From assembly GCA_951406725.2 (NCBI GenBank), contig OX597831.1:17670001-17734000 (forward strand): a DNA stretch of 64,000 bases, given 5' to 3'. Below the pieces are notes generated by a model. It made no database searches and was not told where the DNA came from. It saw only the letters and a list, made by a program, of their open reading frames with translations. Both the position numbers and the translations under genes were made by a program. Shown here piece after piece: positions 1-64,000 of the stretch (within the stretch, counting starts at the first letter, position 1; every line of letters begins with the position of its first letter). The DNA is from Octopus vulgaris (Eukaryota).

Positions 1-836
1 GGAGCCGGAAACGTTATCTGAGGGAGGAGCCCGTTGTAGTTAAGGCCGCAGAAATCTACATCTTGCGTCCACCGGGAGAGTCGTTCTAAATTGTGGTGCT
101 TCTTTGTTTTGCAGTCCCGCCACATGTTCAGCGATTCGTGAGATTGCTCAAAGAACGAAAAGCTGGCTTCCGTGAAAGTCATTTTTCTGCTGAGGAGAAC
201 GGCCGCGAAAAGCCGTTTCATATTTCAAAAGGACATGAGAAAAACCCCTAGTTTATAAGTGGTTTCTATACTTAAAGAATGCTAAACTGTTGCTTGAAGA
301 CCAACCTCGTTACGGTCGAACGTCGACCTATAGAACGAATGAAAAGTTCATGAATATTCGTGAACTAATCTTGGGGTAGCGCCACCAAGAAATTGACCTT
401 CTTGTTAAACTGAATGTGTCTTGGTTATTTCTGCCAACGAAATTTGAACGACGATTTGCGACTGAAATGAGTTGCAGGAAAATTTGTGCCACGCTTACTG
501 ACGGAAAACCAAAAGCAGCCAGGAATGAACGCTTGTTGTGAAATTGAAAAAACTTTAAAAACATTTGGAAATTGACAATGTTTGGAAGGCCATCAATGGT
601 GAGGAAAAGGTGATGCTAAGAATTATGCCGTTAATGAGAAGGTGAAGAAACAATCATTGGGGGTGTTAAAGTGTATAATCTTCTACGAGGTTCACCAATA
701 CTCGGAATAGTGGAAAATGTATCTGGACCACTGCAATGTTTAAATGGAGAATACTCTAAAGTGCATAAAAGTGTAAACATGTAGAATGAAATAATTTTGA
801 AATCGTCCCGTTTTTTGTGTGTGCACTCCCTTGCTT
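1..836 (+). mobile_element. Decayed, internally deleted mariner-type DNA transposon (5' end outside window)
   Basis: Interrupted + strand translation gives ...VAGKFVPRLLT (mariner WVPRxL motif) at ~470-503. A degenerate right TIR (tcccgttttttgt...ccttgctta, ~805-836) matches the left TIR of the sister copy at 63385. Confidence 0.7.
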
Positions 837-1207: not shown

Positions 1208-1470
1208 TCTTTAAATATATAAAACTGAGAATATGTGTCTCTCTATCTGTCTGTCTGTGTATTTCACTAAAACCTAATAACTACACAACCAATTTCATTC
1301 AAATTTTACACATGCCTTACTTAGGGCCGAGGAGTGTCAATGGAAAAAATGTTCAACATTTTGCCTAGAGCGAGCCCATAGCAATATCATATTTTCTCCA
1401 CTATTTCAGTATTACGTGTTAAAAGTGAAACAAAAGCATTTCTCTATTTTATGCCAGATGCTTTCGCTTT
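1208..1470 (+). mobile_element. Possible non-autonomous Helitron-like repeat fragment
   Basis: Starts TC..aatatataaaa, then a (ctgt)n tract and accaatttcattcaaatttt, a layout typical of short invertebrate Helitron-like repeats. No 3' hairpin/CTRR end was found. Confidence 0.3.
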
Positions 1471-1868
1471 AACAATAAAAATAATAATAACAATTGAATT
1501 ATATGTTGTAAGTAATAATTAAAATCAACCTAAAGTATAATATAATCGTAACATAAAAAACAGTAAAAATAGCAATTGGTATAAATTTTCATCAATGACT
1601 TGAACTTGAATAAGTGGTTTCACATGAATGGGAATAAATTAAAAATACAATTAGCGTGGAGAAATGGAATAGTCCAGATGGATAATAAAAAAATTAAATT
1701 AAAGAAAAGACTATTGTCTATAAAGTATACAATGTAGAGGAAAAAGGTCGGTTTTTTTCGGCTCCCGTGTTTTTTTTGAGTTAGTTAGTTGGAGTTATTC
1801 TGGTGTGTTTATTTCGAGTAAAGAGGTTGTGAGTTCGAGTTCGTTGGAGGACGTGGAATAATTTTTTC

Positions 1869-3204
1869 TTGAAAATGCAAGAGCAGACTTACGCGCGAGC
1901 GGCAGGCAGAGGCCTGGTTGCCGGTGAACTGGAAATGGAGGAGGTGATGGTCGAACAGAAGACTTTACAGAAGTATTTCGACAGTTTAAAGAGGGAGGGT
2001 GACTGTGTGATAGTCACACCGTCCGAGGAGGAGGAAAGCAGTGCAGAGAAGCGTACTATAACGTACAGGACGTGGTGCGTGGAGTCGAAGAAGATTGAAG
2101 TAGCGGAAATGGAAGAAGTGGAAAGGTGTCTGAAGGAAATTGAGGGTGAACCAGCATTTTTTAAAAGAGGAAGGAAGTATGCCACGGTAGTGGTGTATTT
2201 TAAAACAGAAGAGGAGGCAAAAAAGAACGCTACAAGAATTTTGAAATCGGATAAGTGGACTTTGCTACCAAGTTACTGCGGAAGGAGAGCAGTGAGGATG
2301 AGAATCAATAGAATCTCACCCGAATTTAATATGGAAAGGTTGCTGGCAGCAGTGCTGTTTAACTGCAAGGATGATGTGGAGGTACTGAAGGTGGAGAAGT
2401 CAGCAGAGGTGAAGTGGTGGGGATATACGGTGCAGGTTCTGGCACACATAACCGTGCGAGACCTGTACAACATCCCGGAGGAGTTGGTCTACCCTGACGA
2501 AACACGGCTCCGAGTTGTGATAGAGGGAAGACCCCCAATTTGCTATAACTGTAAATCGAGGGGCCACATGAAGGATGTGTGCCCGCGAGAAAAAACAAAA
2601 GCACCAGAGGTTGTGATAGAGGAGTGTAAAGAAGCGTGTGTGGAGGAAGCGAAAGCGGAGGAAACACAAATGGAGGAGCAGTTAAATGAGGAAGAACGAG
2701 CAAGTGCAGAAGAGGAAAAAACAGAAGACAAGAAGAGATCAAGGGTGGAATCACCACCGAAAGATATAAAAAAGAAAAAAATCAAAAGCAAGATAGCAGA
2801 AGAGAGAGAAGAAAAAAGAACAGGAAGTAAAAGAAAAGGTGAGAGAGCGACCAAGGACAGAGTTTGAACAAGAATGGGAGACAAGAGTGAACGAACAATT
2901 GGAATCGTGTAAATATGGAAGAAGGCCTACAGGAAAAAACTTGAAGGCAGTTGTGATGTATATCAAGAATACAGAAGTGGAAAAGAGACTTGTAGGTAAG
3001 AAAGGGTTGGTCAGGGTGAAGGTGAACCCAAAACTGTATGGTGAAGATGTAAAAGGCGTCATTATAGACAAGGAGACATACACAAAATTAAAAAAGATAT
3101 ATCATGCTATGCATATAATGCATTATGTACGGTATGATAAATTACCAGATGTAATAGATCAAACGGACCTATTGGATTATATGACGGACGAGTGTCTAAT
3201 GTAA
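1869..3204 (+). CDS. Unit 1 (1746-3532) ORF1: RRM-like regions + CCHC zinc knuckle + C-terminal domain; split into 1869-2867 and 2839-3204 by a probable frameshift
   Basis: RGRKYATVVVYFKTEEEA, VRMRINRISP and VVIEGRPPICYNCKSRGHMKDVC (CX2CX4HX4C) align with the ORFs of the other units but are strongly diverged. Confidence 0.75.
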
Positions 3205-3695
3205 AAGAATTAGAATTGTTACTTGTAAAATTATTTGATGTAAAGTTGTGTTTTTGAACAGGAATATATGTAATGTTAACATGTAAAATTGTAAAATTAT
3301 TGTACTGTGAACTGGAATATATGTAACTGTAAAATTGTATTTTGAACTGGAATATATGAAATGTATAATTGTATTTTAAACGGAACTGCGAGTTGGGGGT
3401 TCGTAAGCCGTTCCATCTCATTACATATAAATTCATCTTTTACTTCATATTTTATTTTTACTTTATGTACCCCATGTCCCGTGTTGTCATGTCCCCCTCT
3501 TCGTGGCCCCTTGTGGGTAATAAAAAAAAAAATCGCGGTTTTTTTCGGCTCCTGAAATTCGGTAAAAAAGAACAAAAAGCGTTGTTGTTGTTGTGGAATT
3601 CTGAACGGCGTTGACGCGGTTTCGCGTTTCGCTCGTTCAGCGCGTTACACTTTTTCTGTTTTGGCGGCCGTTTTCGGTCTGTCAGACAGAAGGAA

Positions 3696-5059
3696 ATGGA
3701 CAACCCCTACCTGATGGGAGATACGGCTGCAGTTTTTGAGTCTTTAACAGACTTGTCTACGTCTGAGGAGGAGCTAGAAATAGCAGTGAGGAAAATGGAT
3801 CAGAAGCTGGGTTATACCTATGCCGGTGTAACCAAGAAGGCGGAAGAGAAAGGGGTCGACATGGCCAAGTTGCCAAGTTACCAGAAATACATGAAAAAGG
3901 AAAGCGGTGAGGTGGAACTATCACCGACACCCAGGAGAAAAGAATGGTATGACAAGAGGACCATTGTTTACAGGGTGTGCGCAAACGAAAGGAAGAGGGT
4001 AGAAGTTGTATCCATGGAATGGATAGAGGAAGCCCTGCGAAGAACTGAGGAGGAAATAAATTTTCTGACTCGAGGATCCAAGTACGGGACCGTAGTTGTG
4101 CACTTTAAAAGTGAATCTGCAGCGAGGAAGATGGCAGCGAAGGCGGTGAAGTCGGAAAAGGTAACACTGTTACCTACGTATTTAAACAGGAGGATTACAC
4201 GAATAAGGGTGGAGGGAGTGCCACCAAACGTGGAGGCAGAATGGATTGTGGCGGCTGTGATCAGCGGCCACGAGGACGAAGTGGATATTCTCCATGCCTC
4301 GGTTAAGTCCGAGGGCTGGAGAGGCGTAACAGTGGAGCTGAACGTACAGGCAGAGACCGAGGTACTGGTGGACCTGACGGAAAGCATCAGACTGGGAGAC
4401 GTGGTCATGAGAGTGTGGGTGGAGGGCAGGGCTCCACGTTGTTACAAGTGTGGCCTGAGGGGCCACATAAGAGCCTTCTGCCCTCCCCCAGGAAAAGAAA
4501 TGGATTCCGAACCAGAGAGAGAGAAGCAGAAACCAGAGGAGAAGGAAACAGAGGAAGAGAATACACAGAAATGGAAGGAAGCTGGAAGTAAGAGGAAGAG
4601 AAGAATATGTGGAAAAAAAGAAAATAATATGGAACTCCAATCTACCCCAAAACCTCCCACACCCTCTGAGTCCCACCCTATCCATGCAGACATTGAACCC
4701 ACCCGCTCCCCCCCAACAAGAAAACAAAAGAAAAAAAGAATACACACACACAAGAGATTGAAATCGAACCCAGGCCGTACATTTGTACTATGACTGAACA
4801 GAAAGAAGTTAAAAGTCTAATGGAAGAGTATAAATGGTATGATGTTGGAGAGACTAGGTATGCTGTGATTGAAAAGAAGAACATAGGTGAGTTTATGGGG
4901 AGGTGTGAAAGGGAGAATTGGGAGGTGAAAGATATAAGAATGAGCGATGAATTCGTGGAAAATATGGATGAGTATTTCGGAGTAAGAATGGATATGGAAT
5001 TTATTCGTATTGACAAAGAACATTCAAGTGACTATGAAAAACAAAGGACAGGTAAGTGA
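3696..5059 (+). CDS. Unit 2 (3533-5211) ORF1, ~455 aa, one -1 frameshift in an A-run near 4731
   Basis: ORFs 3696-4793 and 4790-5059; RGSKYGTVVVHFKSESAA, VWVEGRAPRCYKCGLRGHIRAFC. The A-run has 7 A here and 8 A in the in-frame unit 3 equivalent. Confidence 0.8.
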
Positions 5060-5372
5060 TGCTGACGGACGGGGCCGTTGGTATCGCTTTCATTTTATCA
5101 TTTTTTTCGTTTAACAATTCATGTTCATAAAGTTTAATTATAATGTTCTATGTCCCCATGTTTTGTTATGTCCGCCATTCTTCGTAGCCCCTTAGTGGGT
5201 AATAAAGAAATACGTGTTTTTTTCGGCTCCTGAAATTCAGTAAAAGGGAACAAAAAGCGTTGTTGTTGTGGAAATTGTGAACGGCGTTGATGCGGTTTCG
5301 CGTTTCGCTGGTTCTGCGCGTTACACTTTTTTCTGTTTTGGCGGCCGTTTTCGGTCTGTCAGACAGAAGGAA

Positions 5373-6735
5373 ATGGACAACCCCAACCTGATGGGAGATA
5401 CGGCTGCAGTTTTTGAGTCTTTAACAGACTTGTCTACGTCTGAGGAGGAGCTAGAAATAGCAGTGAGGAAAATGGATCAGAAGCTGGGTTATACCTATGC
5501 CGGTGTAACCAAGAAGGCGGAAGAGAAAGGGGTCGACATGGCCAAGTTGCCAAGTTACCAGAAATACATGAAAAAGGAAAGCGGTGAGGTGGAACTATCA
5601 CCGACACCCAGGAGAAAAGAATGGTATGATAAAAGGACCATTGTTTACAGGGTGTTCGCAAACGAAAGGAAGAGGGTAGAAGTTGTAACCATGGGATGGA
5701 TAGAGGAAGCCCTGCGAGGAACTGAGGAGGAAATAAATTTTCTGACCCGAGGATCCAAGTACGGTGCCGTAGTTGTGCATTTCAAAACTGAGTCTGCAGC
5801 GAGGAAGATGGCGGCGAAGCCGGTGAAGTCAGAAAAGGTAACCCTATTACCTACGTATTTAAACAGGAAGATTACACGAATAAGGGTGGAGGGAGTGCCA
5901 CCAAACGTGGAGGCAGAATGGATTGTGGCGGCTGTGATCAACGGCCACGAGGACGAAGTGGATATTCTCCATGCCTCGGTTAAGTCCGAGGGCTGGAGAG
6001 GCGTAACAGTGGAGCTGAACGTACAGGCAGAGACCGAGGTACTGGTGGACCTGACGGAAAGCATCAGACTGGGAGACGTGATCATGAGAGTGTGGGTGGA
6101 GGGCAGGGCTCCACGTTGTTACAAGTGTGGCCTGAGGGGTCACATAAGAGCCTTCTGCCCTCCCCCAGGGAAAGAAACGGATTCCGAACCAGAGAGAGAG
6201 AAGCAGAAACCAGAGGAGAAGGAAACAGAGTAAGAGAATACACAGAAATGGAAGGAAGCTGGAAGTAAGAGGAAGAGAAGAATTCGTGGAAAAGAAAATA
6301 ATATGGAACTCCAATCTACCCCAAAACCACCCACACCCTCTGAGTCCCACCCTATCCATGCAGACATTGAACCCACCCGCTCCCCCCCAACAAGAAAACA
6401 AAAGAAAAAAAAGAATACACACACACAAGAGATTGAAATCGAACCCAGGCCGTACATTTGTACTATGACTGAACAGAGGCAAGTTAAAAGTCTAATGGAA
6501 GAGTATAAATGGTATGATGTTGGAGAGACTAGGTATGCTGTGATTGAAAAGAAGAACATAGGTGAGTTTATAGGGAGGTGTGAAAGGGAGAATTGGGAGG
6601 TGAAAGATATAAGAATGAGCGATGAATTCGTGGAAAATATGAATGAGTATTTCGGAGTAAGAATGGATATGGAATTTATTCGTATTGGCAAAGAACATTC
6701 AAGTGACTATGAAAAACAAAAGGACAGGTAAGTGA
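5373..6735 (+). pseudogene. Unit 3 (5212-6886) ORF1, near-identical to unit 2, with premature TAA at 6231
   Basis: ORFs 5268-6233 and 6303-6731 align nearly residue for residue with unit 2; GAA>TAA at 6231. Confidence 0.8.
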
Positions 6736-7063
6736 TGCTGACGGACGGGGCCGTTGGTATCGCTTTCATTTTATCATTTTTTCGTTTAACAATTCATTTT
6801 CATAAAGTTTAATTATAATGTTCTATGTCCCCATGTTTTGTTATGTCCGCCATTCTTCGTAGCCCCTTAGTGGGTAATAAAGAAATCAGATTGAACGGTC
6901 GTGTTTTTTTGCGCTCTGTAAAATTCGGTTAAAAAAGAACAAAAAGCGTTGTTGTTGTTGTGGCAATTTTGAATGGCGTTGATGCGGTTTCGCGTTTCGC
7001 TGGTTCTGCGTGTTACACTTTTTCTGTTTTGGCGGCCGTTTTCGGTCTGTCAGACAGAAGGAA

Positions 7064-8483
7064 ATGGACTATGAGTCTCTAACAGACTTGTCCACGACAG
7101 ATGAGGAACTGGAACAGGCAGTGACAATGAAGCTGATGGGAGATAAGGGTGGAGTTTTCGAGTCTTTATCAGACACGTCTACGTCTGAGAAGGAACTAGA
7201 AATGGCAGCGAGGAAATTGGAACAGAAGCTGGGTTATACCTATGCCGGTGTAACCAAGAAGGCGGAAGAGAAAGGGGTCGACTTGGCCAAGCTACCAAGT
7301 TACCAGAAATATATGAAAAAGGAAAGCGGTGAGGTGTAACTAGCACCGACACCCAGGAGAAAAGAATGGTATGATAAAAGGACAATTATTTACAGGGTGT
7401 TCGCAAACGAAAGGAAGAGGGTAGAAGTTGTAACCATGGAATGGATAGAGGAGGCCCTGCGAAGAACGGAGGAGGAAATTAATTTTCTGACTCGAGGATC
7501 CAAGTATGGTACCGTAGTTGTACATTTTAAAAGAGTCTACAGCGAGGAAGATGGCGGCGAAGGCGGTGAAGTCAGAAAAGTTAACACTTTTACCTATGTA
7601 TTTGAAGAGAAGGATTACACGAATAAGGTTGGAGGGAGTGCCACCAAACGTGGAGGCTGAGTGGATTGTGGCGGCTGTGATCAACGGCCACGAGGAGGAA
7701 GTGGATATTCTCCATGCCTCGGTTAAGACCGAGGGCTGGAGAGGCGTAACAGTGGAGCTGAACGTGCAGGCAGAGAACGAGGTACTGGTGGACCTGGCGG
7801 AAAGCATCAGATTGGGAGACGTGATCATGAGAGTGTGGGTGGAGGGCAGAGCTCCACGTTGTTACAAGTGTGGCCTGAGGGGTCACATAAGAGCCTTCTG
7901 CCCTCCCCCAGGGAAAGAAATGGATTCCGAACCACAGAGAGCGAAGCAGAAACCAGAGGAGAAGGAGACAGTAGAAGAGGAAGAGAATTCACAGAAATGG
8001 AAGGAAGCTGGAAATAAGAGGAAGAGAAGAATACGTGGAAAAGAAAATAACATGGAACACCAATCCACCCCAACACCACCCACACCCTCTGAGTCCCACC
8101 CTATCCCTGCAGACAGTGAACCCACCCGCTCCCCCCCAACAAGAAAACAAAAGAAAAAAAATAATACAGACAGACAAGAGATTGAAATCGAACCCAGGCC
8201 GTACATTTGTACTATGACTGAACAGAAAGAAGTTAAAAGGCTAATGGAAGAGTATAAATGGTATGAAGTTGGTGAGACTAGGTATGCTGTGATTGAAAAT
8301 AAGAACATAGATGAATTTATGGTGAGGTGTGAAAGGGAAAATTGGGAGGTGAAAGATATAAGAATGAGCGAGGAATTCGTGGAAAATATGGATGAGTATT
8401 TCGGAGTAAGAATGGATATGGAATTTATTCGTATTGGGAAAGAACATTCAAGTGACGGTGAAAACCAAAGGACAGGTAAGTGA
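7064..8483 (+). pseudogene. Unit 4 (6897-8619) ORF1, same family, with a stop at 7337 and a frameshift near 7530
   Basis: ORF pieces 7010-7339, 7397-7660 and 7518-8483; duplicated ESLTDLST/ESLSDTST N-terminal motif; CCHC knuckle intact. Confidence 0.8.
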
Positions 8484-8786
8484 TGCCTTTAGCATCGCTT
8501 TCATATTATCATTTTTTCATGTAACAATTCATCCTTCATAAATTTAATTGTAATGTTCTATGTCCCCATGTCTTGTAATGTCCCCCTCTTCGTTCGCCCC
8601 TTGTGGGTAATAAAGAAATAGTGTTTTTTTGCGCTCTGTGAAATTCGGTTAAGAAAGAAAAAAGAACAAAAAGTGAATGGTTGTTGTTGTGAAATTTTGA
8701 ACGTCGTTGATGCGGTTTCGCGTTTCACTGGTTCTGCGCGTTGCACTTATTCGGTTCGGAAGGCCGTTTTTCGGTCTGAGGCGACT

Positions 8787-10151
8787 ATGAGCCGCCTCTA
8801 CCAAACGGATGAGATGGAAGGGAGAAATTTCTCTGAAATTTTGTCGACATCTGAGGAGGAGTTGGCGGTGAAAAAAATGGAAAGCACCAATGCAGGTATA
8901 ACGAAGAAGTCAACAGAAAAAGAGATAAACCTGGCTAAGTTGACGGACTTCCAGGAGTTCATGAAGGAGGAGGAGAACGGTGAGGTTGAGCTGTTGCCTC
9001 TAGCAGGGCGCGGAGACTGGTTCCATCGTAGCACCATTAAATATAAAGTATTTATGAATGGAGGTAGAAAAATGGAAGGGATTAACATGGAAGCAATTAA
9101 AGAGGCTTTCAAACAGACAGGAGAAGAAATTGTGTACATGACAAAAGGATTAGAATATGGAACCATAACGGTACAATTTAAAAGTGAGAAAGCAGCCAGG
9201 AATATAGCAGCCAAGGTGGTGAGTACAGAAAAGTTTTACTTGTTCCCCTCGTATTTGAATAGAAGGACCACCAGAATTAGGGTGGTGGGAATACCTCCAC
9301 ACCTAGAGGGCGAATTAATAACGGCTGCTGTTATCAAATGAAATGAAGATAAAGTGGACATCCTCCACGCCATTATGAAATATGAAGGCGTGAGAGGTGC
9401 CACACTAGTAATGAACATACAGACGGAGGCGTAAGTTATAGAAAAGCTTACGGACAGTATAAAAACTGGAAATATTATTATGAGAGTGTGGGTGGAGGGT
9501 AGGGCACCCAGGTGCTACAGGTGTGGCCTGAGGGGTCACATAAGAGCCTACTGCCCTCCCCCACCAAAGGAAAAAGAAAAGGAAATCGTCGCGGAAGCCC
9601 CAAAAGAGGAAGAAACAAAAGAGAACCAAAGGGAAAAAGAAACGACAAAAGAAGAGGAGATGCAACAAGAGTGGGAAGAAGGAAGAAAAAAGAGAAAAAG
9701 AAAGAAAAAGAAAAACTGTGCGAAGCCCCAACCCACCCCAACACCACCCGCACCCTCTGAATCCCACCCTTCCCCTGCAGACAGTGAACCCACCCGCTCC
9801 CATCCAACAAGAAAACAAAAGAAAAATATACACAGACAAGTGTTTGAAAACGAACCCAGGCCGAACATTTATATTATGACTGAACAGAAAGAAGTGAAAA
9901 GCGTAATGGAAGAGTATAAATGGTATGAAATAGGTGAGACCAGATATGCAGTGCTGGAAAAGAAGAATATAGATGAGTTTGTGTTGAGGTGTGAAAGGGA
10001 GAATTGGGACGTGAAAGATACAAGAATGAGTGATGAATTCGTGGAATATATGGAGGACAGTTTCGGAGTAAGAATGGATATGGATGGTCTTCGTATTGGG
10101 AATGAACATTCAGCTGACAGTGAAAACAAAAGGACAGGTAAGTGGTGCTAG
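8787..10151 (+). pseudogene. Unit 5 (8620-10288) ORF1 with a divergent N-terminal half and in-frame stops at 9339 and ~9432
   Basis: KGLEYGTITVQFKSEKAA, TRIRVVGIPP, CYRCGLRGHIRAYC; C-terminal domain MTEQKEVKSVMEEYKWY. Confidence 0.78.
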
Positions 10152-10508
10152 CGGATGGGGCCGTTGGCACCGCTTTCATATATCATTTTCAAAATTCATT
10201 TTACTCATATCTATGTAATTGTGATGTTCCATGTCCCCAATGTTTGTAATGTCCCCTCTATATGGCCCCTAGTGGGTAATAAAGAAATAGGTCGTGTTTT
10301 TTTGCGGTTATTGTAAGTTGATATATTTTTGCTGTCGTATTATTATCTCTGTTATTCTCTACTGTTTGTCTACCTGTTTTGTATATTGCTGTCTAACTGT
10401 CGAAGTCAGCCTTCGCGCGAGGACTTCGCGTTTGTGTTCCCCCCTCCGTGGGGGAAAAATATCAATTATCTTGAAGTTACCAAGGGCTTGTGAAGCCAAC
10501 TGTTCAAG

Positions 10509-11868
10509 ATGGAGTCCCCCTTCTCTGATTCTCCCGTGAAGAGTGAAGAGGAGTATCCGGCGATGTCGCCAAGGAAAAAAGAGGCGGTGTCGCCAAAGAA
10601 AAAAGAGGCGACTTCACCAAAGAAAAAGGAAAACCCAGCACCTGCACCAGCTTCAGCGAAAAAAAATCTCTGAAGTGGCCGGTAAAAAGATTAAAAAAAT
10701 AAATGTGGAAGATTTGGAAATATATGCGGACTGTGTAAAAAAAGAGGGCACGGAAGTGACAGTGGTCACAAACGTCCAAAGACACGATGAAATAGAAAAA
10801 AAAAGAATAATTTATAAGACATTTAACACGACGACAAAAATGATCAAAAAAATTGAAGAAAAAAAATAGAGAACTGTCTTAAACCATTAATGGACAAAAT
10901 AACTTACAGTAACAGAGGAAAGAGATACGGCACAGTGGAGGTGCGTTTCACTACAGAGGAGATAGCAAAAAAACTATCTATGGAGCCGATTAAAGCGGAG
11001 AACATTGTTCTCCTCCCCTTGTATAGAGGGAAAAGAACATCGAGAATTACGATGAACAACATTCCCCCATAGGCAGATGCCGAATGTCTGGTGGTAGCAG
11101 TGATGGTAGGCCTGGAGGAAAAAATAAACATCCTCCAGGCCACAGTGAAGGAAGAGGAATTTTGGAAAGGACAGAAAATAGTAATAGCCATTCAGGCGGA
11201 AGTTCAAACACTGGAGGAAATTCCAGAAACTTTAAAAATAAATGAGGAAGAGAGAATAACAGTTTTCGTGGAGGGCAGAAAGCCGAGGTGCGTCTGCTGC
11301 GGCAAGAAGGGTCATGTAAGGGCGGAATGCCAACCCCAACCCAAGCCGCAGGAAGCACCTCAGCCAGGTGAAAAAGAAGATAAAGTGTCACAAGAAGCAG
11401 CGCCGGGCGGCCCAGAAGGGACGACTGAAGGTGTGGAGGTGAAAAAGGCAGCAGAACCAGCGGCGGAGGAAAATAAGAGCGAGGAAAAGAAAAATGAGGA
11501 GGGGTGGGCAAAAATCACCAGAAAAAAAAAAGAAAAACGGAAACCACCCCTCCCAGAGTGAACTTAAAAAGAAAAGAGAGTCGATGTACTCGTATATGGC
11601 CGTTAAGGCATCAAATAACAGACTTGGAAACGTATTGGCAGCTATGGCCAAAGTGGAGAGAATAGGGAAAAAGAACGACTATGTAGTTTACAGAATAGGC
11701 CGGAAGGATTACGGGCGGATAAAATCCGAATTCTTCCATGACGTAGGCCCACTTAGAATGGATGTGACATCTCCACATATATTCGAGGGCCTACGTCAGA
11801 CTCCCCCACGAGGCCCTGAAAAAGAGTTAAACAAAGAAGAGAAAGACAAAACCGAACCACTGATATAA
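10509..11868 (+). pseudogene. Unit 6 ORF1 (SPKK repeats, RRM-like, CCHC knuckle, C-terminal domain), with several frameshifts and a stop
   Basis: ATG 10509 MESPFSDSPVKSEEEYPAMSPRKKEAVSPKKKEATSPKKKE; RGKRYGTVEVRFTTEE; VFVEGRKPRCVCCGKKGHVRAEC. Confidence 0.78.
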
Positions 11869-11877
11869 AGGTAAGTA

Positions 11878-14657
11878 ATGGATTACATTTATGTTGGTTG
11901 TTTGAATGTGCGCGGCCTGGGAGCAGGCTGGAAGCAAGGTCGCTTCCTGCATGATATCAGGTCGCGTAATTTAGATGTTATTGTTGCTACAGAAACCCGG
12001 TTAGAGGGGCAAAGAGGTCTACTCCCGCTGTTTGACGGCTACGAGAGTTTTTTCTCTCTGGCAGTCCTACTGGCAGAAGTGGGGTGTTGGTCCTAATAAA
12101 AAGAAACCGGGTTTCTGAGAAAAAGTTAATTTTTGCAGATCCAGAAGGTAGGCTGGTCGTCATGGATTTGACGTTCAGTAACGGTAAAGTTATCAGACTG
12201 GTTGCAATTTACGCACCCAACCATACAGGGCAAAGTGATTATTTTCGTGAACTAGAAAACTTTCTTGGTACTTCGCATTCATTAGTTGTGCTAGGAGACT
12301 TTAACACAATTTGTAAAGCGGATGTAGATTGTGTTCGCTCGCGTTCAGATAGAAAAGGTAACAGTGGCTTCATAGAACTGCTAAGCCGCTTTGAGCTAGC
12401 AGATCCTTATAGGCTGGAATTTCCGAACGCTCCATTGTGGACATGGTCAAACAGCGACGGATCTTCCAGGTCATATTTAGATAGAATACTAATTAGAAAA
12501 GTAGACAGAAAAATAGCTAAGTGTCCACAGTTTTACCCGATCAGCTACAGTGATCATAAAATGGTCACCTGTAAGCTTGACATAGATAAGGTTAAAAATA
12601 GAGGATCCGGTTACTGGAAACTTAATACGTCCCTTTTGGCGATTAAGGAGTACAAAGACCGGATTAGGACTATAATTCAGAGGGCACTATCTGGTACCAT
12701 CATTAATAACAAATGGTGGTACGCCCTCAAACGAGCCATCAAGTTCGAGTCAATTAGATATAGCATAGGAGTAGTGGCTAGAGAGGCTAGGATGGAAACT
12801 ACTCTAGTTAAGGAATTAGAGGAAGCCTTGAAAACTGGCTCTGCGGCTCAGGTGGCGTCCAAGAGACTGGTTTTAAACCACCACCTCGAGGCCAAACACA
12901 TGCGCTGCATTGTCAGGGCTAGGATCCGCGCAATAGGATGTGAAGGAATCAACGCTGTGAGATGGGCCCGATTGGTGGAAGCCAAGCGTGGTAACGATGC
13001 CACGATTCGATCTATGACGAACCAACAAGGTGAGTTGATAAACGAGCCCGAGGAGATGTGTGAGGCCTTTCAGGAGCACTTCGCTCAGCTTTTCGGTGAG
13101 TGCGGCGGACTGGATAGGAGGAGCGCCTTTACGGATCTACTCGACGGGATGCCGCGCTTATCGGGGCGAGATGCGGAGGGCTGTGAAGGGCCAATCACGC
13201 CTGAGGAAGTGGTTGAGGCAATGGCGGACTGCGGCGCGGGCAAGGCGCCGGGTTTGGATGGTCTACCCTATGAGTTATATAAGAGTATGCCAGACTTGTT
13301 CGGGCACCTACTGGCGGAGGTCTATGCGAACTGGCAGCAGAACGGTATATACCCAGATCTGTGCGCCGGGGAGTAGTGACACTCGTCAGAAAGGACCCGA
13401 GCAAGGGGGAGTGTATTGATAAATTCAGGCCCATCACTCTGCTAAACACAGAGTTGAAGATTTTGGCCAAAGTGTTATCGAAAAGATTGGCGCGTGTCAC
13501 GGATGGTCTGATCGGGGAGGCACAGACATGTGCCGTTCCGGGCAGAACCATTCAGGATAATCTCCATCTAATGCGGTATACTATAGAGGGTTTTAATAGT
13601 GATTCTGGCAAGCGTGGGGCACTGGTCCATTTAGACCAATCTAAAGCATTTGATAGGGTCGGCCATCGGTACCTGGTATCTGCCCTGGCACAGTTGGTTG
13701 ATCAAGTTGGAAAGACAGCTCTTCTACTTCTTGTGGAAGGGCGGGAAACCACTTGTGAAACGCTCTACTTGCTGTCAACAACCGTTAAAGGGTGGGCTAG
13801 GGATGCCTTGGCTGATGATACGCAGACATGCGCTGAGGTTAAAACATCTGTGGCTCTACCTGGATGGTGAACGGGTGTGGTCTCCGCTAGCAAAACTGAT
13901 GTTTCCCAAGTTCACTAGTTTCGGTGGATGGGAAACCTGGCTGAATCGTAGATCGAAACTTGGTACTTGGTACACGGAGTGTCGCAAGGCTCTCCTGCTA
14001 TTCCGTCGCTCAGGTAACGCCTGCGGTGGGGGTTCCACCACATTCTTCTATAGAGGGTTGGTAGAGGCGGAATGTGAAGATACCTTGGGGGAAACCCTAG
14101 GTCTCGACGATAATCAGCTGGCCAGTCTGTTCCGACGTACGTTCAAGCCGAAGACACTGGACAACTTCCAGAAGTCTCTGGCATGGCAATGCTACAGAGG
14201 AGCTCTACCTGTTCGGGATAAACTCGCAAGGCACGGTGGCCGAGACAGTCCGATATGTCCAAGATGCGGGCGGGACAGGGAAACCGTTCCGCACGCTATT
14301 GTTCATTGTCCGGACGTGTCTGAGGTGTGGGTTAATGCCGAACAGCTGTTGTCAAGTACACGAAGAGTACAGCTGTCGACTGAGTCGATTACAAAAATTG
14401 ACCCACCGGATTTCCTCGCGAATGAAGGTAAGTTTCGTTTTCTCGTTGTAGTAGCAATTGCGAAAGAGGTGATATGGAAGACGAGAATGAAAGGTCTACA
14501 ATCAGGCAAGTTCATCTCCGGCCCTGGTTTGATGAATTATTTCATCTTTCACCTGAAAAGGAAGATAGGGCTGGAGAGAATATGCCTGACTAAGAGAGTG
14601 TATGAAGAACGATGGAAAGATGTAGCACGAAAGTTGCGAGTGAATGATACAACATAA
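11878..14657 (+). pseudogene. Unit 6 ORF2: AP endonuclease - reverse transcriptase (core deleted) - zf-RVT-like zinc finger
   Basis: APE motifs LNVRGL, TET, IYAPN, LGDFN, SYLDRILI, SDH, GYWKLN. RT motifs KAPGLDGLPYELY, FRPITLLNTELKILAK, LDQSKAFDRV. At ~13690 it jumps to the post-RT FLWKG..GGLG region. C-terminal CPRCGRDRETVPHAIVHC. Confidence 0.9.
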
Positions 14658-14863
14658 ATGTAAAACCAAACGAAACCAAAAGTATCAGTGGGGAGGCGGG
14701 TCTCGTGGGGTCAGAGCTAAACCCGCACCCACTCCACCCGTAATGTCTTCCGGTCTGTTCCAACATTCGATTTCTTGCTATTTTTGTAAATTTCTGTAAA
14801 TTTTTAAAATTCGCTTTTTTGTAAAACCCATTTGTGTGTCTGACCCCATCATCAGATAGTATT

Positions 14864-15659
14864 ATATTATTATGAGAGTGTGGGTGGAGGGTAGGGCGCC
14901 CAGGTGCTACAAGTGTGGCCTGAGGGGTCACATAAGAGGCTACTGCCCTCCCCCACCAAAGGAAAAAAGAAAAGGAAATCGTCACGGAAGCCCCAAAAGA
15001 GGAAGAAACTAAAGAGAAACAAACAGAAAAGGAAACGACAGAAGAAGAGGAGATGCAACAAGAATGGGAAGAAGGCAGAAAAAAGAGAAAAAGAAAGAAA
15101 AAGAAAAACTGTGCGAAGCCCCAACCCACCCCAACACCACCCACACCCTTGGAGACCCATCCTGCCCCTACAAACAGCGATTCCAACCACTCCCCGCCTA
15201 CAAGAAAAACAAAAACAGACACTCAGAACAAACAAGAGCCCCAGACCTACTTTTTGTGTGTTGTGAGGAAGGGGGACACCGAGGACGCAAAAATGATTTT
15301 TCATAATGACGTATGGCAAGTGTATGAAGACGGCAGTTACGCGGTGTGTGATTTTGAATTTATGGACTCATTGACGAACAAGTGTAACGAATTGTGTATA
15401 AATTTGGTGAAAGCGTATATGAGGGATGATATGATAGAGATGTATGAAGGAGAAATGAAGGGTGTGGTACACGGGTTTGGAATTGTGATGGGAAACGGAC
15501 AGGTAAGTGATGCTGGCGGAGGGGGCCGTTAGCATCGCTTTCATATTATCATTTTTTCATTTTAATATTCATTTGCTCATAATTTTAATCATATTGTTTT
15601 ATATCCCCCATGTCTTGTAATGTCCCCTCTTCGTCGCCCCTAGTGGGTAATAAAGAAAT
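14864..15659 (+). mobile_element. Unit 7: 5'-truncated ORF1-only unit with a distinct C-terminal domain
   Basis: 14864-15215 is nearly identical to unit 5 at 9473-9820. ORF 15053-15532 then encodes a different C-terminal domain, followed by the shared 3' UTR/tail. Confidence 0.78.
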
Positions 15660-17315
15660 AGGTTGTGTTTTTTTGCGCTCTGTGAAATTCGGTAAAAAAA
15701 GAAAAAAGAACAAAAAGTATTGTTGTTGTTGTAGAAATTTTGAACGTTGTTGATGCGGTTTCGCGTTACACTGGTTCTACGAGTTACACTTTTTCTGTTC
15801 GGGCGGCCGTTTTCGGTCTGTCAGACAGAAGGAAATGGACTTTGATTCCCTATCAGACTTGTCTACGTCTGAGGAGGAACTGGAACAGGCAGTGAGAATG
15901 ATGGATCGAAAGCTGGGTTATACCTATGCCGGTGTAACCAAGAAGGCGGAAGAGAAAGGGGTGGACTAGACCAAGCTGCCAAGTTACCAGAAATATATGA
16001 AAAAGGATAGCGGTGAGGTCGAACTAGCACCGACACCCAAGAGAAAAGAATGGTATGATAAAAGGACCATTATATACAGGGTGTTCGCAAACGAAAGGAA
16101 GAAGATAGAAGTTGTAAACATGGAGTGGAGAGAGGAGGCGCTGAGAAGAACGGAGGAGGAAATTAATTTTCTGACTCGAGGATCAAAGTATGGTACTGTA
16201 GTGGTACAGTTTAAAAGTGAGAATGCAGCAAGGAAGATGGCGCCGAAGGCGGTGAAATCCGAGAAGGTAACTCTTTTGCCTACATATCTAAATAGAAGGA
16301 TTACACGAGTAAGGGTGGAGGGAGTGCCACCAAACGTTGAGGCAGAGTGGATTGTGGCGGCTGTGATCAGCGGCCACGAGGAGGAAGTGGATATTCTCCA
16401 TGCCTCGGTTAAGACCGAGGGCTGGAGAGGCGTAACAGTGAAACTGAACGTGCAGGCAGAGAACGAAGTACTAGTGGACCTGGCGGAAAGCATCAGATTG
16501 GGAGACGTGATCATGAGAGTGTGGGTGGAGGGCAGAGCTCCACGTTGTTACAAGTGTGGCCTGAGGGGGTCACATAAGAGCCTTCTGCCCTCCCACAGTG
16601 AAAGAAATGGATTCCGAACCACAGAGAGAGAAGCAGAAACCAGAGAAGGAGACAGTAGAAGAAGAGAATTCTCAGAAATGGAAAGAAACTGGGAATAAGA
16701 GGAAGAGGAGAATACGAGGAAAATAAAATAACATGGAACACCAATCCACCCCAACACCACCCACACCCTCTGAGACCCACCCTATCCCTGCAGACAGTGA
16801 ACCCACCCGCTCCCCTCCAACAAGAAAACAAAAGAAAAAAATAATACAGACAGACAAGAGTTTGAACACGAACCCAGGCCGAACATTTATATTATGACTG
16901 AACAGAAAGAAGTGAAAAGGGTAATGGAAGAGTATAAATGGTATGAAATGGATGGGACCAGATATGCAGTGCTGGAAAAGAAGAATATAGATGAGTTTGT
17001 GTTGAGGTGTGAAAGGGAGAATTGGGAGGTGAAAGATACAAGAATGAGCGATGAATTCGTGGAAAATATGGAGGAGTATTTCGGAGTAAGAATGGATATG
17101 GATGGTCTTCGTATTGGGAATGAACATTCAGGTGACAGTGAAAACAAAAGGACAGGTAAGTGATGCTGGCGGAGGGGGCCGTTAGCATCGCTTTCATATT
17201 ATCATTTTTCATTTTAAATATTCATTTGCTCATAAATTTAATCATTTTGTTCTATGTCCCCCATGTTTTGTTATGTAAGCCAATCTTCGTAGCCCCTGGT
17301 GGGTAATAAAGAAAT
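15660..17315 (+). mobile_element. Unit 8: ORF1-only unit (ORF remnants 15835-17163 with stops and frameshifts)
   Basis: ORF 15997-16698 resembles units 2-4; ORF 16894-17163 resembles the unit 5 C-terminal domain; shared termini. Confidence 0.8.
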
Positions 17316-17801
17316 AACATGGAGGAAAGCGCCTTCGAAAAGTTTGTTGGTGCGATTATGAAAGATATCTAATCTGAGGCGGTAAATTCGCCACAATAGA
17401 AGCAAGGTTCGAGTCAACGGAGAGTGCAAGGGAGTACTCGACTCGAACTTGATAAGTGCAAATATTTTATTTTTACCGTTATGTAAAAAAAAAATTTATG
17501 TCCCCCTCCCCTTGTAGGCTTGATGGTAGACACACTTCTATACAAGCGGGAGGACAAGATACAATTGATCGAAATTACAACAGACGGGCTAACAATTCCA
17601 GCCTGTTATATATTTTGAGTATTGTCATCACTGGCGATATCAAGATATAACTTTGTATTTTGTATTTTATATCTAGATGTATATATATAGATGTACCTGT
17701 AATATGGACACATATATATATATATACATATATATACATGCACTAGCACTATGACCCAGGATCGACGGGTCTTTAATGCTGGTTCTTAATATAAAATAAA
17801 G

Positions 17802-23214: not shown

Positions 23215-25423
23215 TCAAATGAAACAGCAAAACCAGAAAACTACAGACCAATAACCTGCTTCCCTACTATGTTCAAGGCATTTACTGCAGTGATATCGCA
23301 AAGGCTGAACAAGCACCTGAACGAAAACAAACTGTTCATGGAAGAGCAGAAAGGATGCCGCAAAGGCTCATATGGCTGTAAAGATCAACTAATGATTAAT
23401 AAAGCCGTAACTGAAGACAGCCACAGAAAGAAGAAAGGCCTCAGTATGGCCTGGATTGACTACAAAAAGGCGTTTGATAGCATCCCCCAAACATGGATAC
23501 TCGAAACACTAGCCATTAACAAAGTAGCACCAACAATCATAAAATTCATAGAGTGCTCTATGAATAAATGGCAAACAGTCCTACACCTCCAAACAAAAGA
23601 GGGACTCATGAAAACCAAAGACATCCCCATTAGAAGAGGAATATTCCAGGGAGACACGCTCTCTCCACTCCTATTCTGCTTGGCACTGTAACCTCTATAT
23701 CATATGCTAAATAGAACTGGATGCGGATATAAATGTTACGGCAAAACGATTAGCCACCTTTTATATATGGATGACTTAAAACTATACGCTGCAAATGACA
23801 AACAGCTGGAAACACAATTAAAGACAGTTCAAGGATTTACCAAAGAAATAGATATGAAATTTGGATTAGAAAAATGCGCCAAAGTAACCATGAAAAGAGG
23901 AAAACTAGTTAAGAATAACAACATCACACTAGATAAAACCAATGAAATAAAAGAATTAGACCAAAGCCAAACTTACAAATAATTAGGAATCCATGAACTA
24001 GATAAGACACAACACACACAAATGAAAGAGAAAATAAAAATGAATATTATAGACGAGTTAGATCAATACTAAAAACAGAGCTCAATGCTAAAAACAAGAT
24101 AATAGGTATCAACACTTTAGCTGTCCCAGTTATAAGTTACAGCTACAATATCCTTAACTGGACACGAAATGAACTGTCCAAAATAGATAGGAAAACAAGA
24201 AAAATACTGACAGGATCTAGGATGCATCACCCAAAATCTGACATAGAAAGACTATATATACAACGTATAGAAGGTGGTAGAGGACTTATACAGCTGGAAA
24301 ACTACTGTAAAATAACCACCATAGGACTGCAAAAATACCTACTTCAGAAGGAAGGAAAACTGATCCAGATAGCAGCAAAACACGAGCAAAACAAAAAACT
24401 GTTCTCAGTATTTAAGGAAGCTGACAAATACAAACAAGAAATCATACCACCTAATAAACACGAAGAAGAAGAAGAAGATGATGAAGAAAACACAAAAGCT
24501 ATAAAACAAATGAAATCCAAACAAAAAATAGAACAGCAACGAACCATGATAAAACGATGGCAAGAAAGCCCCATCATGGTAAATACTGCACTAAACTAAA
24601 CGCAAATGAAATAGACAAAGAAAAATCCCAGCAATGGTTGAGAAGCTCAGGACTCAAAGCAGAAACAGAGGGATTTTTAATTGCAGCACAAGACCAAAAC
24701 CTCCCCACCAGAAATTACCAAAAACATGTAATGAAAAGACATATTACAAGTAACTGCAGAATATGTGAAGATGGACAAGAAACAATAACTCATATTATCT
24801 CTAGCTGCCCAGTCCCGGCTAAGAAGGAATATATTCACAGACATGACAGAGTTGGAATCTACATACATTGGAAGCTATGCCAACATTATGGAATAACAAC
24901 AGAAAAAAGATGGTATAGGCACACACCAGAAAAGGTCACAGAAAACGAGAAAGCAACCATACTCTGGGATATGCCGATACACACAGATAGAGAAATTAAG
25001 GCCAACAGACCAGATATAGTTGTCAGAGATCATGAAGAAAAACATGCTTTCTAATTGATGTATCAATACCGGCAGATGACAACGTGTCTCTAAAAGAAAT
25101 GGAGAAACTCTCAAAATACAAAGACCTGGAAATAGAGGTAACTAGAATGTGGAATCTGAAAACAGAAACAATTCCTATCATAGTAGGTGCATTAGGCATG
25201 ATAAAAAAATATTCAGACAAATACATAACAAAAACACCAGGACTTACAAACACATATAACATAAAGAAAATTGCTTTACTAGGCACTGCACACATCCTAC
25301 GCAGAACACTTTCCATACAATAACAATCAGAGCATCACAACAAATCACAGCACATACCCAAGGCACACAGAGCTGCGCTCGGTAGTGAAGTGAAAGCACG
25401 CTATAAAAATAAAACTACTGAAT
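23215..25423 (+). mobile_element. 5'-truncated R4/Dong-clade non-LTR retrotransposon (RT + restriction-like endonuclease) in (AAT)n
   Basis: WIDYKKAFDSI, GIFQGDTLSPLLF, HLLYMDDLKLYA, CRIC..ETITHIISSC, RHD, NRPDIV, EKLSKYKDL; (AAT)n tracts on both sides. Confidence 0.88.
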
Positions 25424-29289: not shown

Positions 29290-30630
29290 ATATATATATA
29301 TGAAAAGGGAAGAAATTGAAAAGGAAAAACGTTTCAGATATGAATACAGAATCGCGGCAAATTCCAGTCGCAATCCAAAAACCTTCTTTGACCTTGTCCA
29401 ACGGAATTCCCGCTTGAACAACAAAATTGCAACGTTGGTAGACTCAACAGGCATATCGATTGAGAACCCTTATCAACAGAGTCAGTTATTTGCCTAGGCC
29501 TTTTCAACTATTTTCAAACAAGATGATGGTCGTGAACCCCCTCCATTTGATAGATCGGTACCTCAAATGCGTCGATTGGTCATCACGCGGGACGAAGTCG
29601 AACGCCTTATTCAAGGCCTCGATGTCAACAAGGTTCACGGCCCTGACGGCATACACACACGGGTTATTAAAGCGTTGGCTCCGGTCATCTGCGAGCCCTT
29701 AACGCGTCTATTCAATAAGTCATTGGCGACGGGTGTTATACCTTCGGACTGGAGAACAGCGATAAACTGCCCAATTTTCAAGAAAAGGAGCCGCGAAGAC
29801 CCGCTTAACTACCGACCGGTTTCCCGTACATCAATAATCAGCAAAATGTTCAAAGCCATCCTTAAGACAAGCATGATGCTCCACCTCCAAACGCAGCCTC
29901 CATCTCTGATTCCCAAAACAGCTTCGTGCCGAAGAGATCATGTTGACCAACTTACTAGTAATGGAAGAATTGGTGACGCGCATCCTTGATGATAGTGATG
30001 CTGCTGACATCGTTTTATTGGACTTTGCCAAAGCTTTTGACTCGGTAAACCACCGCCTGTTACTTGTCAAGCTTCAAGCATATAGTTTTCATCCGGATAT
30101 TGTACGATGGGTTGGTGCCTTCCTCTCAGATCGCTCCTTCCAAGTCCAAGTTAATGGTTCGTGGTCCGACGTCTTCAGTGCGAGCAGTGGAAACGCCTCA
30201 AGGTTCAGTGCTTGTGCCCTTATTGTTCTTAGTCTTCAAAAATAACTTGCCCCACGCCCTCACGCAACACACCCTTCTATTTGCCGACGATGTCAGACTG
30301 GTCGATCCTCGCGGTGGTATAGAGGATTTTCGTCGATGCCTCCACCAAATTTGGAGATGGTCTAACGAATGGGACCTGTGTCTGAACGTGTCAAAGTGCT
30401 GTCATCTGCCTGTCGGCTCTACTCCTGCAACTCAACTTGATTTCGAGCCGGTTCGTCTGCTGCTGGAGAGGACCGATCAGGTAAAGGACCTGGGTATCTT
30501 GGTGGATTCCTTCTTTTCGCTTTCAGCCCAGTGCGTCTATGCTGCCAACAAAGCACGCGGATTTCTGTTCTTGATTCGACGGTCATTCGGAATGCTCACA
30601 GCAGCCATATTCCTACCACTCTATGCCACA
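29290..30630 (+). mobile_element. Decayed CR1-group LINE RT fragment (different, GC-richer family)
   Basis: GPDGIH, NYRPVS, LDFAKAFDSVNH, PQGSVLVPLLFL, FADDVRL, KDLGILVD. Confidence 0.85.
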
Positions 30631-31189
30631 AGATTAACTAACTAACTAACATTTCAGTACAGGACACCACAAATAAACGTAGAGCACAACGAGAAACGAA
30701 AACATAAAATCAAACACGGAAACGGACTTTTTTGAACAACGAAGAAACAGAGTACAGGAAAAGCAATACAAGGAACATTCCCCTTCATCAGATCCCCTGG
30801 TGCTACTCAAAGCGTGTTTAGAAGGTAAGGGCAGAACACGGCCAGGCCTAAACAATCCTTCCTGCAAAAGGAATTAAATAAAATTATTTTGATGGAGGGT
30901 AAAACAAGTGACAAAAACAGGACGTAAAAGCAATACAAATGAAGAAAAAACAGTACAAATAATGAATAACAGGACAGGGAACCAGCAAAAAGTGCTTTCT
31001 TTAGGCCTAGACGGTGGAGACGCTCACTCTTACCCTTTATTTCACCTTTCCTCCCTGCCTGTCTGTCTTCACATATATATATTCGGATATATTCCTTCTA
31101 TATTTTATGTTTAAATATTATTTTTTGCAGTCATTATATTGTGGGCATGTTGGTGTAGCACACATAAGGTTTTAATCAAACGGCTACAT

Positions 31190-63384: not shown

Positions 63385-63999
63385 TACGAAGGGTACAAAA
63401 AAGGAGCCGGAAACGTTATCTGAGGGAGGAGCCCGTTGTAGTTAAGGCCGCAGAAATCTACATCTTGCGTCAACCGGGAGAGTCGTTCTAAATTGTGGTG
63501 CTTCTTTGTTTTGCAGTCAGGCAACAAGTTCAGCGATTCGTGAGATGGCTCAAAGAACGAAAAGCTGGCTTCCGTGAAAGTCTTTTTTCTGCTGAGGAGA
63601 ACGGCTGCGAGAAGCCGTTTCATATTTCAAAAGGACATGAGAAAAACCCCTAGTTTATAAGTGGTTTCTATACTTAAAGAATGCTAAACCGTTGCTTGAA
63701 GACCAACCTCGTTACGGCCGAACGTCGACCTATAGAACGAATGAAAAGTTCATGAATATTCGTGAACTAATCTTGGGGTAGCGCCACCAAGAAATTTACC
63801 TTCTTGTTAAACTGAATAATGTGTCTTGGTTATTTCTGCCAACGAAATTTGAACGACGATTTGCGAATGAAATGAGTTGCAGGAAAATTTGTGCCACGCT
63901 TACTGACGGAAAACCAAAAGCAGCCAGGAATGAACGCTTGTTGTGAAATGGAAAACATTTTAAAAACATTTGGAAATTGACAATGTTTCGGAAGGCCAT
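63385..63999 (+). mobile_element. Second copy of the decayed mariner at 1-836 (runs out of the window)
   Basis: TA+cgaagggtacaaaaaaggagccggaa TIR; 63403-63999 is nearly identical to 1-593. Confidence 0.75.
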
Positions 64000-64000
64000 C

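What the first reader, a model, noticed from the sequence alone, without database searches (positions are those of the whole stretch)
3500..17315. Conserved termini across divergent units suggest self-targeted insertion
Seen: all seven ORF1-only units end ...TGTCC..N..GCCCCT(T/A/G)GTGGGTAATAAA(GAAAT). A GCCC/GGGU mini-hairpin precedes the polyadenylation signal, and there is almost no poly(A). Units 1-6 and 8, including the two-ORF element, begin with a variant of GGTCG(T/G)GTTTTTTT(G/C)CG. Junctions differ by a few bases (extra CAGATTGAAC at 6887-6896, shortened 5' ends at 5212 and 8620, an A-run at 3522-3532), as expected for separate TPRT events. Inference: the ORF2 endonuclease cuts at an element's own terminus, or RT jumps from template to template, so arrays grow.
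Basis: partly seen in the sequence, partly recalled or inferred. Interest (0 to 1): 0.7.

Follow-up and report, generated by a model that had tools for sequence, protein, structure and literature searches.

The report
Retrotransposon trains with inherited landing addresses
In this octopus-type genome a complete jumping gene and its half-size relatives sit head to tail at one spot inside another transposon, and each sub-lineage keeps turning up beside the same short sequence, likely because its RNA carries the parent copy's flank along as a landing address.

Summary
The array (1746-17316) lies inside a 1-kb non-autonomous Helitron-type repeat (at least 1,388 copies), at a site used again at dozens of loci: 34 of 37 other array loci touch this Helitron, and 22 of 29 two-ORF copies end at the same base. 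Flanks differ by 4-5% between loci while units differ by 0-1%, so insertions are independent. The tail is shared with the two-ORF L1/Tx1-type LINE and a SINE (23,815 copies), so it is likely a recognition signal, not the target. Later arrivals land at the front end of resident units; window units 1-2 are youngest. New here: the tail variant predicts the landing site (purity 0.83 against 0.48 shuffled), even among near-identical bodies, and one foreign flank travelled to two other chromosomes. Best reading: successive target-primed insertions, with RNA-borne flanks acting as addresses, as proposed for Drosophila R1. One RNA contig and two junctions argue against the address step. This scan already noted the Helitron stacking at least eight times in this genome, and tail-to-site coupling once for SINEs in another genome.

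The parts
1208..1745 (+). Left arm of the host: non-autonomous Helitron-type repeat carrying a decayed ORF1-like fragment
   Evidence: Same sequence precedes heads at other loci and continues into the right arm at empty sites; shared 5' terminus; ORF1 likeness E 4e-14 by tblastn on empty copies
1746..3532 (+). Unit 1: ORF1-only element, divergent family (38% aa to unit 2), ends in an A-run; youngest unit
   Evidence: ORF 1875-2867 with weak zinc knuckle; 0.1% from a copy on another contig; a 16-17 nt direct repeat flanks it but is probably lineage-borne
3533..5212 (+). Unit 2: ORF1-only, family A
   Evidence: ORF 3696-4793; 0.2% from nearest copy elsewhere; tail joins the head of unit 3
5213..6887 (+). 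Unit 3: ORF1-only, family A, in-frame stop near 6231
   Evidence: 2.1% from nearest copy
6888..6896 (+).
   Evidence: Matches Helitron sequence immediately upstream of the empty landing site; the same tail-spacer-head junction occurs at C10:43.6 Mb
6897..8620 (+). Unit 4: ORF1-only, decayed
   Evidence: 4.5% from nearest copy
8621..10289 (+). Unit 5: ORF1-only, decayed
   Evidence: 3.7% from nearest copy
10290..14862 (+). Unit 6: two-ORF L1/Tx1-type LINE, broken (frameshifts, about 610 nt of the RT region missing, last 45 nt with the tail missing)
   Evidence: Translation; Pfam endonuclease and zf-RVT; gap against intact copies at ORF2 position 1820; intact relatives have 1131-aa ORF2
14863..15660 (+). 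Unit 7: 3' part of an ORF1-only element
   Evidence: 91% to unit 5 over 351 nt; carries the tail at 15643
15661..17316 (+). Unit 8: ORF1-only, family B, joined to the Helitron landing site
   Evidence: the same tail-host junction at other loci; 2.5% from nearest copy
17317..17782 (+). Right arm of the host Helitron-type repeat, ending in a short hairpin and the shared 3' terminus
   Evidence: Follows 22 of 29 other two-ORF copies; terminus shared by empty copies

Best explanation
The array sits inside a Helitron-type repeat and was likely built by successive target-primed insertions, first at one fixed Helitron base and then at the front ends of resident units, with each element's RNA likely carrying a few bases of its parent's flank that pair with, and so choose, the next site. 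Shown: the host and its fixed site, independence of the insertions, target duplications, the shared tail, the coupling of tail variant to landing site, and transport of one flank between chromosomes. Inferred: that the two-ORF ORF2 protein mobilises the ORF1-only units and the SINE in trans through the shared tail; that transcripts start upstream of the head and run past the tail; that the 3' overhang anneals to the nicked strand (priming) and the 5' overhang to the upstream strand (second-strand joint). What brings the particle to this Helitron region in the first place is open; a longer RNA arm or a loose endonuclease preference are both possible.
For: Host: 34 of 37 other array loci have the Helitron on at least one side (loci chosen from head, junction and host hits, so not unbiased). 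Unbiased samples: 22 of 29 two-ORF copies end at the same Helitron base; 24 of the first 30 of 132 two-ORF 3' ends lie in the Helitron or at a resident head; 23 of 26 genuine ORF1-only 3' ends among the first 30 of 293 hits lie in arrays or the Helitron. Independence: flank divergence among filled loci 4.0% (left) and 4.9% (right), like empty copies (4.2, 6.0), while first and last units are a median 0.4 and 0.7% from copies elsewhere; the neighbour is co-inherited in only 32 of 180 cases. DNA-level events: 79 of 233 units have a bounded direct repeat or host piece at both ends, several with a locus-specific variant on both sides (L246, L249, L253, L264, C8_64.9, C20_32.4). Address: tail class predicts landing class, purity 0.83 against shuffled mean 0.48, maximum 0.54 (210 junctions); within family A alone 0.87 against 0.57, maximum 0.67 (55 junctions). 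The nearest body at another locus has the same landing class in 78.3 of 111 cases against 34.8 shuffled, though bodies of different classes can be 0.1-0.3% apart. A family-A copy in a different repeat on C22 has an 18-nt duplication; its left-junction string reappears as spacer at 7 junctions on C2 and 1 on C17, always behind tails of the same sub-lineage. A donor-type 4-nt deletion appears in the left joint at C15_0.8 but not in its right copy. In loci fetched later, both new junctions of the A-rich-tail lineage and both of family D begin with the first 3-5 or more letters of their lineage's usual site (read by eye). Precedent: R1 transcripts carry 28S flanks and R1 tandems form at the 5' duplication (PMC2718515, sections 13-15 read).
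Against: One contig of a run guessed to be RNA has 17 A's directly after window 5210, with no flank; two others read through 30 and 37 nt. At C20_32.4 and C38 an element landed at the usual distance from the left Helitron arm although the downstream sequence was different, pointing to upstream recognition. Two-ORF copies land on host variants mismatched at the second or third base. Unit-1-type elements end in A-runs of 7-22, as if copied from a poly(A) tail, yet 9 of 9 join a head. In one class the last tail base could be target-derived, which inflates purity; classes were drawn after seeing the data. No overall age polarity across arrays (rho 0.10, p 0.25, 134 units). 138 of 233 units showed no repeat of 8 nt or more (exact matching, output partly cut). 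Neighbour co-inheritance (18%) exceeds background (2.3%), so some multi-unit RNAs or template switches may occur. No transcript end was observed directly.
Confidence: 0.65

Rival explanations
1. Protein-determined targeting: several ORF2 endonuclease variants, or each family's own ORF1 protein, recognise different sites; successive insertion is right but RNA flanks are passengers.
For: Two-ORF subfamilies differ by 21-25 residues in the endonuclease and use different flanks. Landing at a fixed distance from the left arm despite changed downstream sequence at two loci. Kojima 2015 states that target choice is mainly set by the endonuclease (PMC4494074, passage). All 37 filled copies with a readable left arm are the short Helitron variant, against 18 of 29 in the host sample.
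Against: About ten different landing sequences with no common consensus; family-A bodies 0.1-0.3% apart use four different sites, each tied to a cis tail variant; the hairpin-loop region of the endonuclease is the same in all readable copies but for one Leu/Ile change.
Confidence: 0.2
2. Template jumping: one reverse transcriptase primes once at the Helitron site and hops from the 5' end of one RNA to the 3' end of the next, writing the whole array in one event.
For: Many junctions have no spacer; several arrays are uniformly young (0.1-1.2%); neighbours are co-inherited more often than background (32 of 180).
Against: Window units span 0.1-5.1% divergence without A-to-G skew; single units carry their own duplications with locus-specific variants; where the downstream unit begins depends on the upstream tail class, not on the downstream family.
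Confidence: 0.12
3. DNA-level copying: the Helitron carried a founder array around by rolling-circle transposition, or arrays grew by tandem or segmental duplication.
For: Identical junction strings at many loci; one pair of loci (C10_43.6, C15_65.7) shares left flank at 0.5% and three units.
Against: All other filled flanks are 1.3-6.8% from their nearest relative while units are often under 1%; unit order differs between loci.
Confidence: 0.03

Closest known systems
Tx1L in Tx1D (Xenopus); Tx1-Mar LINEs and SINEU-3 in Mariner-N4_AMi (crocodilians). PMC4494074: passages and section 15 read
   Same: Tx1-type LINE and its non-autonomous passengers target one site in a non-autonomous DNA transposon; tandem copies sandwich a target duplication; insertions independent of host spread.
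   Different: Host here is a Helitron-type repeat, and the site lies in a captured ORF1 fragment; passengers encode ORF1; arrays mix families (up to 15 units); sub-lineages use different sites.
Drosophila R1 tandem arrays and flank-bearing R1 transcripts. PMC2718515: sections 13, 14, 15 read; R1Bm needing downstream target on its RNA as cited in PMC7265360 (passages)
   Same: New copies insert at the 5' end of resident copies; RNA is proposed to carry downstream and upstream target sequence; off-target sites share a few bases with the usual target; 12-14 nt duplications or short target deletions.
   Different: R1 has one invariant rDNA target. Here the target is mutable repeat DNA, and the carried flank appears to diverge into lineage-specific addresses served by a shared enzyme. 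ORF2 is L1-like, not R1-like.
HAL1, HeT-A, Ag-Sponge (ORF1-present non-autonomous LINEs). PMC5786205: passages read; the HAL1 paper itself is not held
   Same: ORF1 kept, ORF2 lost, 3' end shared with an autonomous LINE; head-to-tail mixed arrays recall HeT-A (recalled).
   Different: Derived from an L1/Tx1-type element with a zinc-knuckle ORF1; dispersed on many chromosomes inside a Helitron, not at telomeres.
SINE-LINE tail sharing (stringent recognition; established knowledge, mentioned in PMC4494074 passage)
   Same: A very abundant SINE ends in the same tail and shows 11-19 nt duplications starting right after it.
   Different: The SINE has only a short local preference; its partner LINE subfamily was not identified.

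Membership tests
Tx1 clade of non-LTR retrotransposons | ORF2 with AP-type endonuclease, RT and C-terminal cysteine-rich domain, no RNase H | tested here: met
   Pfam PF03372, PF00078, PF13966 on an intact 1131-aa copy; best solved relative is L1 ORF2p, E 1e-64
Tx1 clade of non-LTR retrotransposons | RT phylogeny groups with named Tx1 families rather than L1 | not tested
   No named Tx1 reference came back (23 hits, none named); the label Tx1 rests on architecture and recall
Tx1 clade of non-LTR retrotransposons | Preference for a repeated target | tested here: met
   22 of 29 copies at one Helitron base; 24 of 30 in Helitron or heads
ORF1-present non-autonomous LINE (HAL1-like) | Encodes only an ORF1 homologous to the partner's ORF1 | tested here: met
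   33-40% identity to the two-ORF ORF1; no ORF2 in 1.7-kb units
ORF1-present non-autonomous LINE (HAL1-like) | 3' end shared with the autonomous partner; moves as its own unit | tested here: met
   Tail alignment; independent loci and duplications
HAL1 in the strict sense | Descent from the L1 clade | tested here: inconclusive
   L1 versus Tx1 placement not resolved by a tree
Non-autonomous Helitron (host) | 5' TC and 3' CTRR termini, subterminal hairpin, insertion between A and T | tested here: met
   Termini shared by most of 30 copies; end motif found in 21 of 30; window termini 1208 and 17782. Defining features recalled
Non-autonomous Helitron (host) | Termini shared with an autonomous Rep-helicase element | not tested
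   No search made
R1 clade | Insertion in 28S rDNA; R1-type ORF2 | tested here: not met
   No rRNA match in window 1-25000; ORF2 closest to L1 among solved structures. Works like R1, is not R1
Deu/Nin-domain SINE (the tail-sharing SINE) | Central Deu/Nin domain | not tested
   Label recalled from memory only

The most novel reading that the evidence does not exclude
One LINE enzyme is retargeted by its cargo: each RNA carries a short copy of the parent's flank, so landing sites are inherited in cis, mutate, and found new target lineages after a stray insertion. That would be natural RNA-programmed site selection in an L1/Tx1-type retrotransposon.
Probability: 0.45. Interest if true: 0.75.

Novelty: new variant of a known kind. 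Interest (0 to 1): 0.52.

Why it matters
Target choice of AP-endonuclease LINEs is usually credited to the endonuclease. Here about ten landing sites are used by sub-lineages that differ only in a few terminal bases, which gives a ready natural experiment on how much RNA-DNA pairing contributes to target-primed reverse transcription, an open question for L1-type elements and for transgene-insertion tools. It also explains why divergent families share ends (shared recognition tail; captured or shared heads) and shows a young, apparently active system (units 0.0-0.2% apart, many intact ORF2s). The parts (Tx1 in DNA transposons, ORF1-only helpers, R1-type flank carriage) are each in print; I found no paper on the combination in 8 searches of an open-access library, which lacks most subscription papers and Repbase reports.

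Tried and rejected
RNA-gene target (U2, tRNA, 5S): no Rfam match above threshold in 1-25000. General 5'-to-3' age gradient: not significant; seen only in some arrays (window, C38). A left-arm base variant enriched at filled loci (12 of 37 against 1 of 29) as proof of a carried 5' arm: rejected, those loci form a Helitron subfamily that is homogeneous 300 nt upstream. The repeat flanking window unit 1 as a fresh duplication: doubtful, two other unit-1-type copies carry the same left piece although their downstream neighbour differs. Polymorphism of this array: four DNA contig sets show empty-site joints but cannot assign them to this locus; no listed holder is on record as RNA, so expression is untested. 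Hairpin covariation: none; single-sequence folds split 27 mini-hairpin to 40 longer stem. Protein search gave no named Tx1. A pooled statistic for off-target matches to each lineage's usual site was not obtained, so those matches rest on reading outputs by eye. L156, counted as empty, is in fact filled; the effect is one row. Supplements of the papers were not read; those of PMC4494074 list further Tx1 targets and could bear on novelty. PMC13282606 (passages) lists active L1-Tx1 and Helitron families in an octopus but 0 hits for 'nested'.
Full report
Observation. The array really runs from 1746 to 17316: seven ORF1-only units of about 1.7 kb (one of them a 3' fragment) and one broken two-ORF element. 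The organism label 'octopus-type' comes from the scan's notes and recall, not from a call on the genome.

The tail. The pattern has 23,815 matches in the genome, control 0. The first 30 are all one SINE, with mixed downstream flanks; 7 of these 30 show an 11-19 nt duplication next to the SINE start, in 5 beginning exactly six bases after the polyadenylation-like hexamer. All 29 other two-ORF copies examined end in the same tail. So the tail marks three kinds of element and is best read as the signal by which ORF2 takes its template (inference from known SINE-LINE tail sharing). The small hairpin is conserved but unproven.

The partner. At least 150 two-ORF copies match at 91-100% amino-acid identity, many with open frames of about 1130 residues. 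An intact copy has endonuclease, RT and zf-RVT domains and is closest to L1 ORF2p among solved structures. Placement in Tx1 was not tested by a tree.

The host. The sequence after the window's last tail also follows 22 of 29 other two-ORF copies, and the sequence before unit 1 has 1,388 exact motif matches. In most of the first 30 the two halves are contiguous: the empty site (2 of 30 are filled). The repeat is about 1 kb with fixed ends of Helitron type and holds a decayed ORF1-like fragment across the site. Of 37 other array loci fetched, 34 touch it. Unbiased 3'-end samples agree: 24 of 30 two-ORF ends and 23 of 26 ORF1-only ends lie in the Helitron or an array. Arrays outside this Helitron exist (C5_118.8, C4_45.6, C4_80.1).

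Independent, successive insertion. Filled Helitron flanks differ among loci as much as empty ones (4.0 and 4.9% against 4.2 and 6.0%), whereas units are typically under 1% from a copy at another locus; the neighbour is shared in 32 of 180 cases. One pair of loci is a block duplicate. Solo and tandem two-ORF copies carry 11-15 nt duplications, with locus-specific variants on both sides in four cases. In the window, distances to the nearest relative are 0.1, 0.2, 2.1, 4.5, 3.7, 5.1 (units 6+7) and 2.5%, without editing skew, so units 1 and 2 are recent additions at the left end; these distances are upper bounds on age because sampling is partial. Across 134 units there is no general gradient. 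Families that land on the Helitron site lie 3', those that land on heads or just upstream lie 5', which follows if later arrivals need a resident unit.

The junction differences. The 10 extra bases at 6887-6896 are one tail base plus host sequence from just upstream of the landing site, and the same junction recurs on C10. The 'shortened' heads at 5213 and 8621 are recurrent joint positions inside the head. The unit 6/7 joint lacks both the tail of 6 and the front of 7; a later deletion or a truncated insertion both fit.

Addresses. Sorting 275 junctions by 3' UTR family and last bases, the class predicts the landing site: purity 0.83 on 210 de-duplicated junctions against at most 0.54 in 2,000 shuffles, and 0.87 against at most 0.67 within family A. 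Examples: family B 23 of 23 on the Helitron-site sequence; the common family-A tail 48 of 51 on heads; an A-rich variant 6 of 6 on or like a site 70 nt up the left arm; family D 9 of 20 on or like the leader site at window 3631. Bodies cut off before the tail carry the same signal (78.3 of 111 against 34.8), yet bodies of different classes can be 0.1-0.3% apart, so ORF1 cannot explain it. A copy on C22 sits in an unrelated repeat with an 18-nt duplication, and its left-junction string is found at only eight other places, all spacers in Helitron arrays on C2 and C17 behind tails of the same sub-lineage: flank sequence travels with the RNA. Stray insertions tend to begin with the first few letters of their lineage's usual site (4 of 5 two-ORF strays; the new junctions; read by eye, no pooled statistic). 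Against: a poly(A) directly after the tail in one contig of a run only guessed to be RNA, two landings fixed by upstream context, mismatches at the second and third base, and variable A-runs in unit-1-type tails.

Mechanism. Most likely the ORF2 particle binds the shared tail, nicks near a site that pairs with the RNA's overhang, primes there, and closes the 5' joint by homology with the upstream strand, as proposed for R1 (PMC2718515, sections 13-15). The founding site is in the Helitron; each insertion leaves duplicated or carried flank at the front, which becomes the next landing zone. Confidence about 0.85 for successive site-specific insertion, about 0.5 for the RNA address.

Known and new. 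Tx1 elements in DNA transposons with tandem passengers (PMC4494074), ORF1-only LINEs (PMC5786205) and flank-bearing R1 RNA are published. The scan had noted the Helitron stacking in this genome at least eight times and tail-to-site coupling for SINEs in another genome; these are unchecked notes and not support. My reading, address idea included, was stated before the first look-up. Verdict: new variant of a known kind, interest 0.52.

Noticed in passing
window 5051, 6727, 8475, 11870, 15502, 17155: ORF1-only units keep the overlapping stop-start motif that joins ORF1 to ORF2 in the two-ORF element; it also reads as a strong 5' splice site. Suggests origin by deletion just after the ORF2 start.
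   Followed up: no
window 1-594 and 63403-64000: The two ends of the window are 96.7% alike over 598 nt: a repeat or local duplication.
   Followed up: no
L187 (C1:12.8 Mb) unit 1; L206 (C6:90.0 Mb); L231-L232 (C38) unit 8: Strong A-to-G excess against nearest relatives (41, 81 and 49 changes), as expected from RNA editing copied into DNA; not seen in window units.
   Followed up: partly
L103, L106, L248, L356: A second host repeat, apparently holding a mariner-like piece (label recalled), is the landing site of another two-ORF sub-lineage whose head resembles that site.
   Followed up: partly
L272, L329, L330, L333; equivalent to window about 17591: A second landing site in the right arm of the same Helitron, used by one two-ORF tail variant.
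   Followed up: partly
G000 C1:4607445-4608383; L019, L025: The tail-sharing SINE forms 184-nt tandem arrays joined at a fixed internal position.
   Followed up: partly
L360, L361, L362 (C22, C27, C30): Homogeneous 5.3-kb tandems of a diverged two-ORF subfamily (ORF1 about 70%, ORF2 about 94% to the window copy); no Helitron arm in the stretches fetched.
   Followed up: partly
L211-L213 and L226-L229: Two loci share left flank, three units and upstream tandem: a block duplication.
   Followed up: partly
window 23269-25054, 29567-30645, 34041-34820, 37253-38599: Fragments of other retroelement ORFs (RTE-, CR1- and Penelope-like by recall), unrelated to the array.
   Followed up: no
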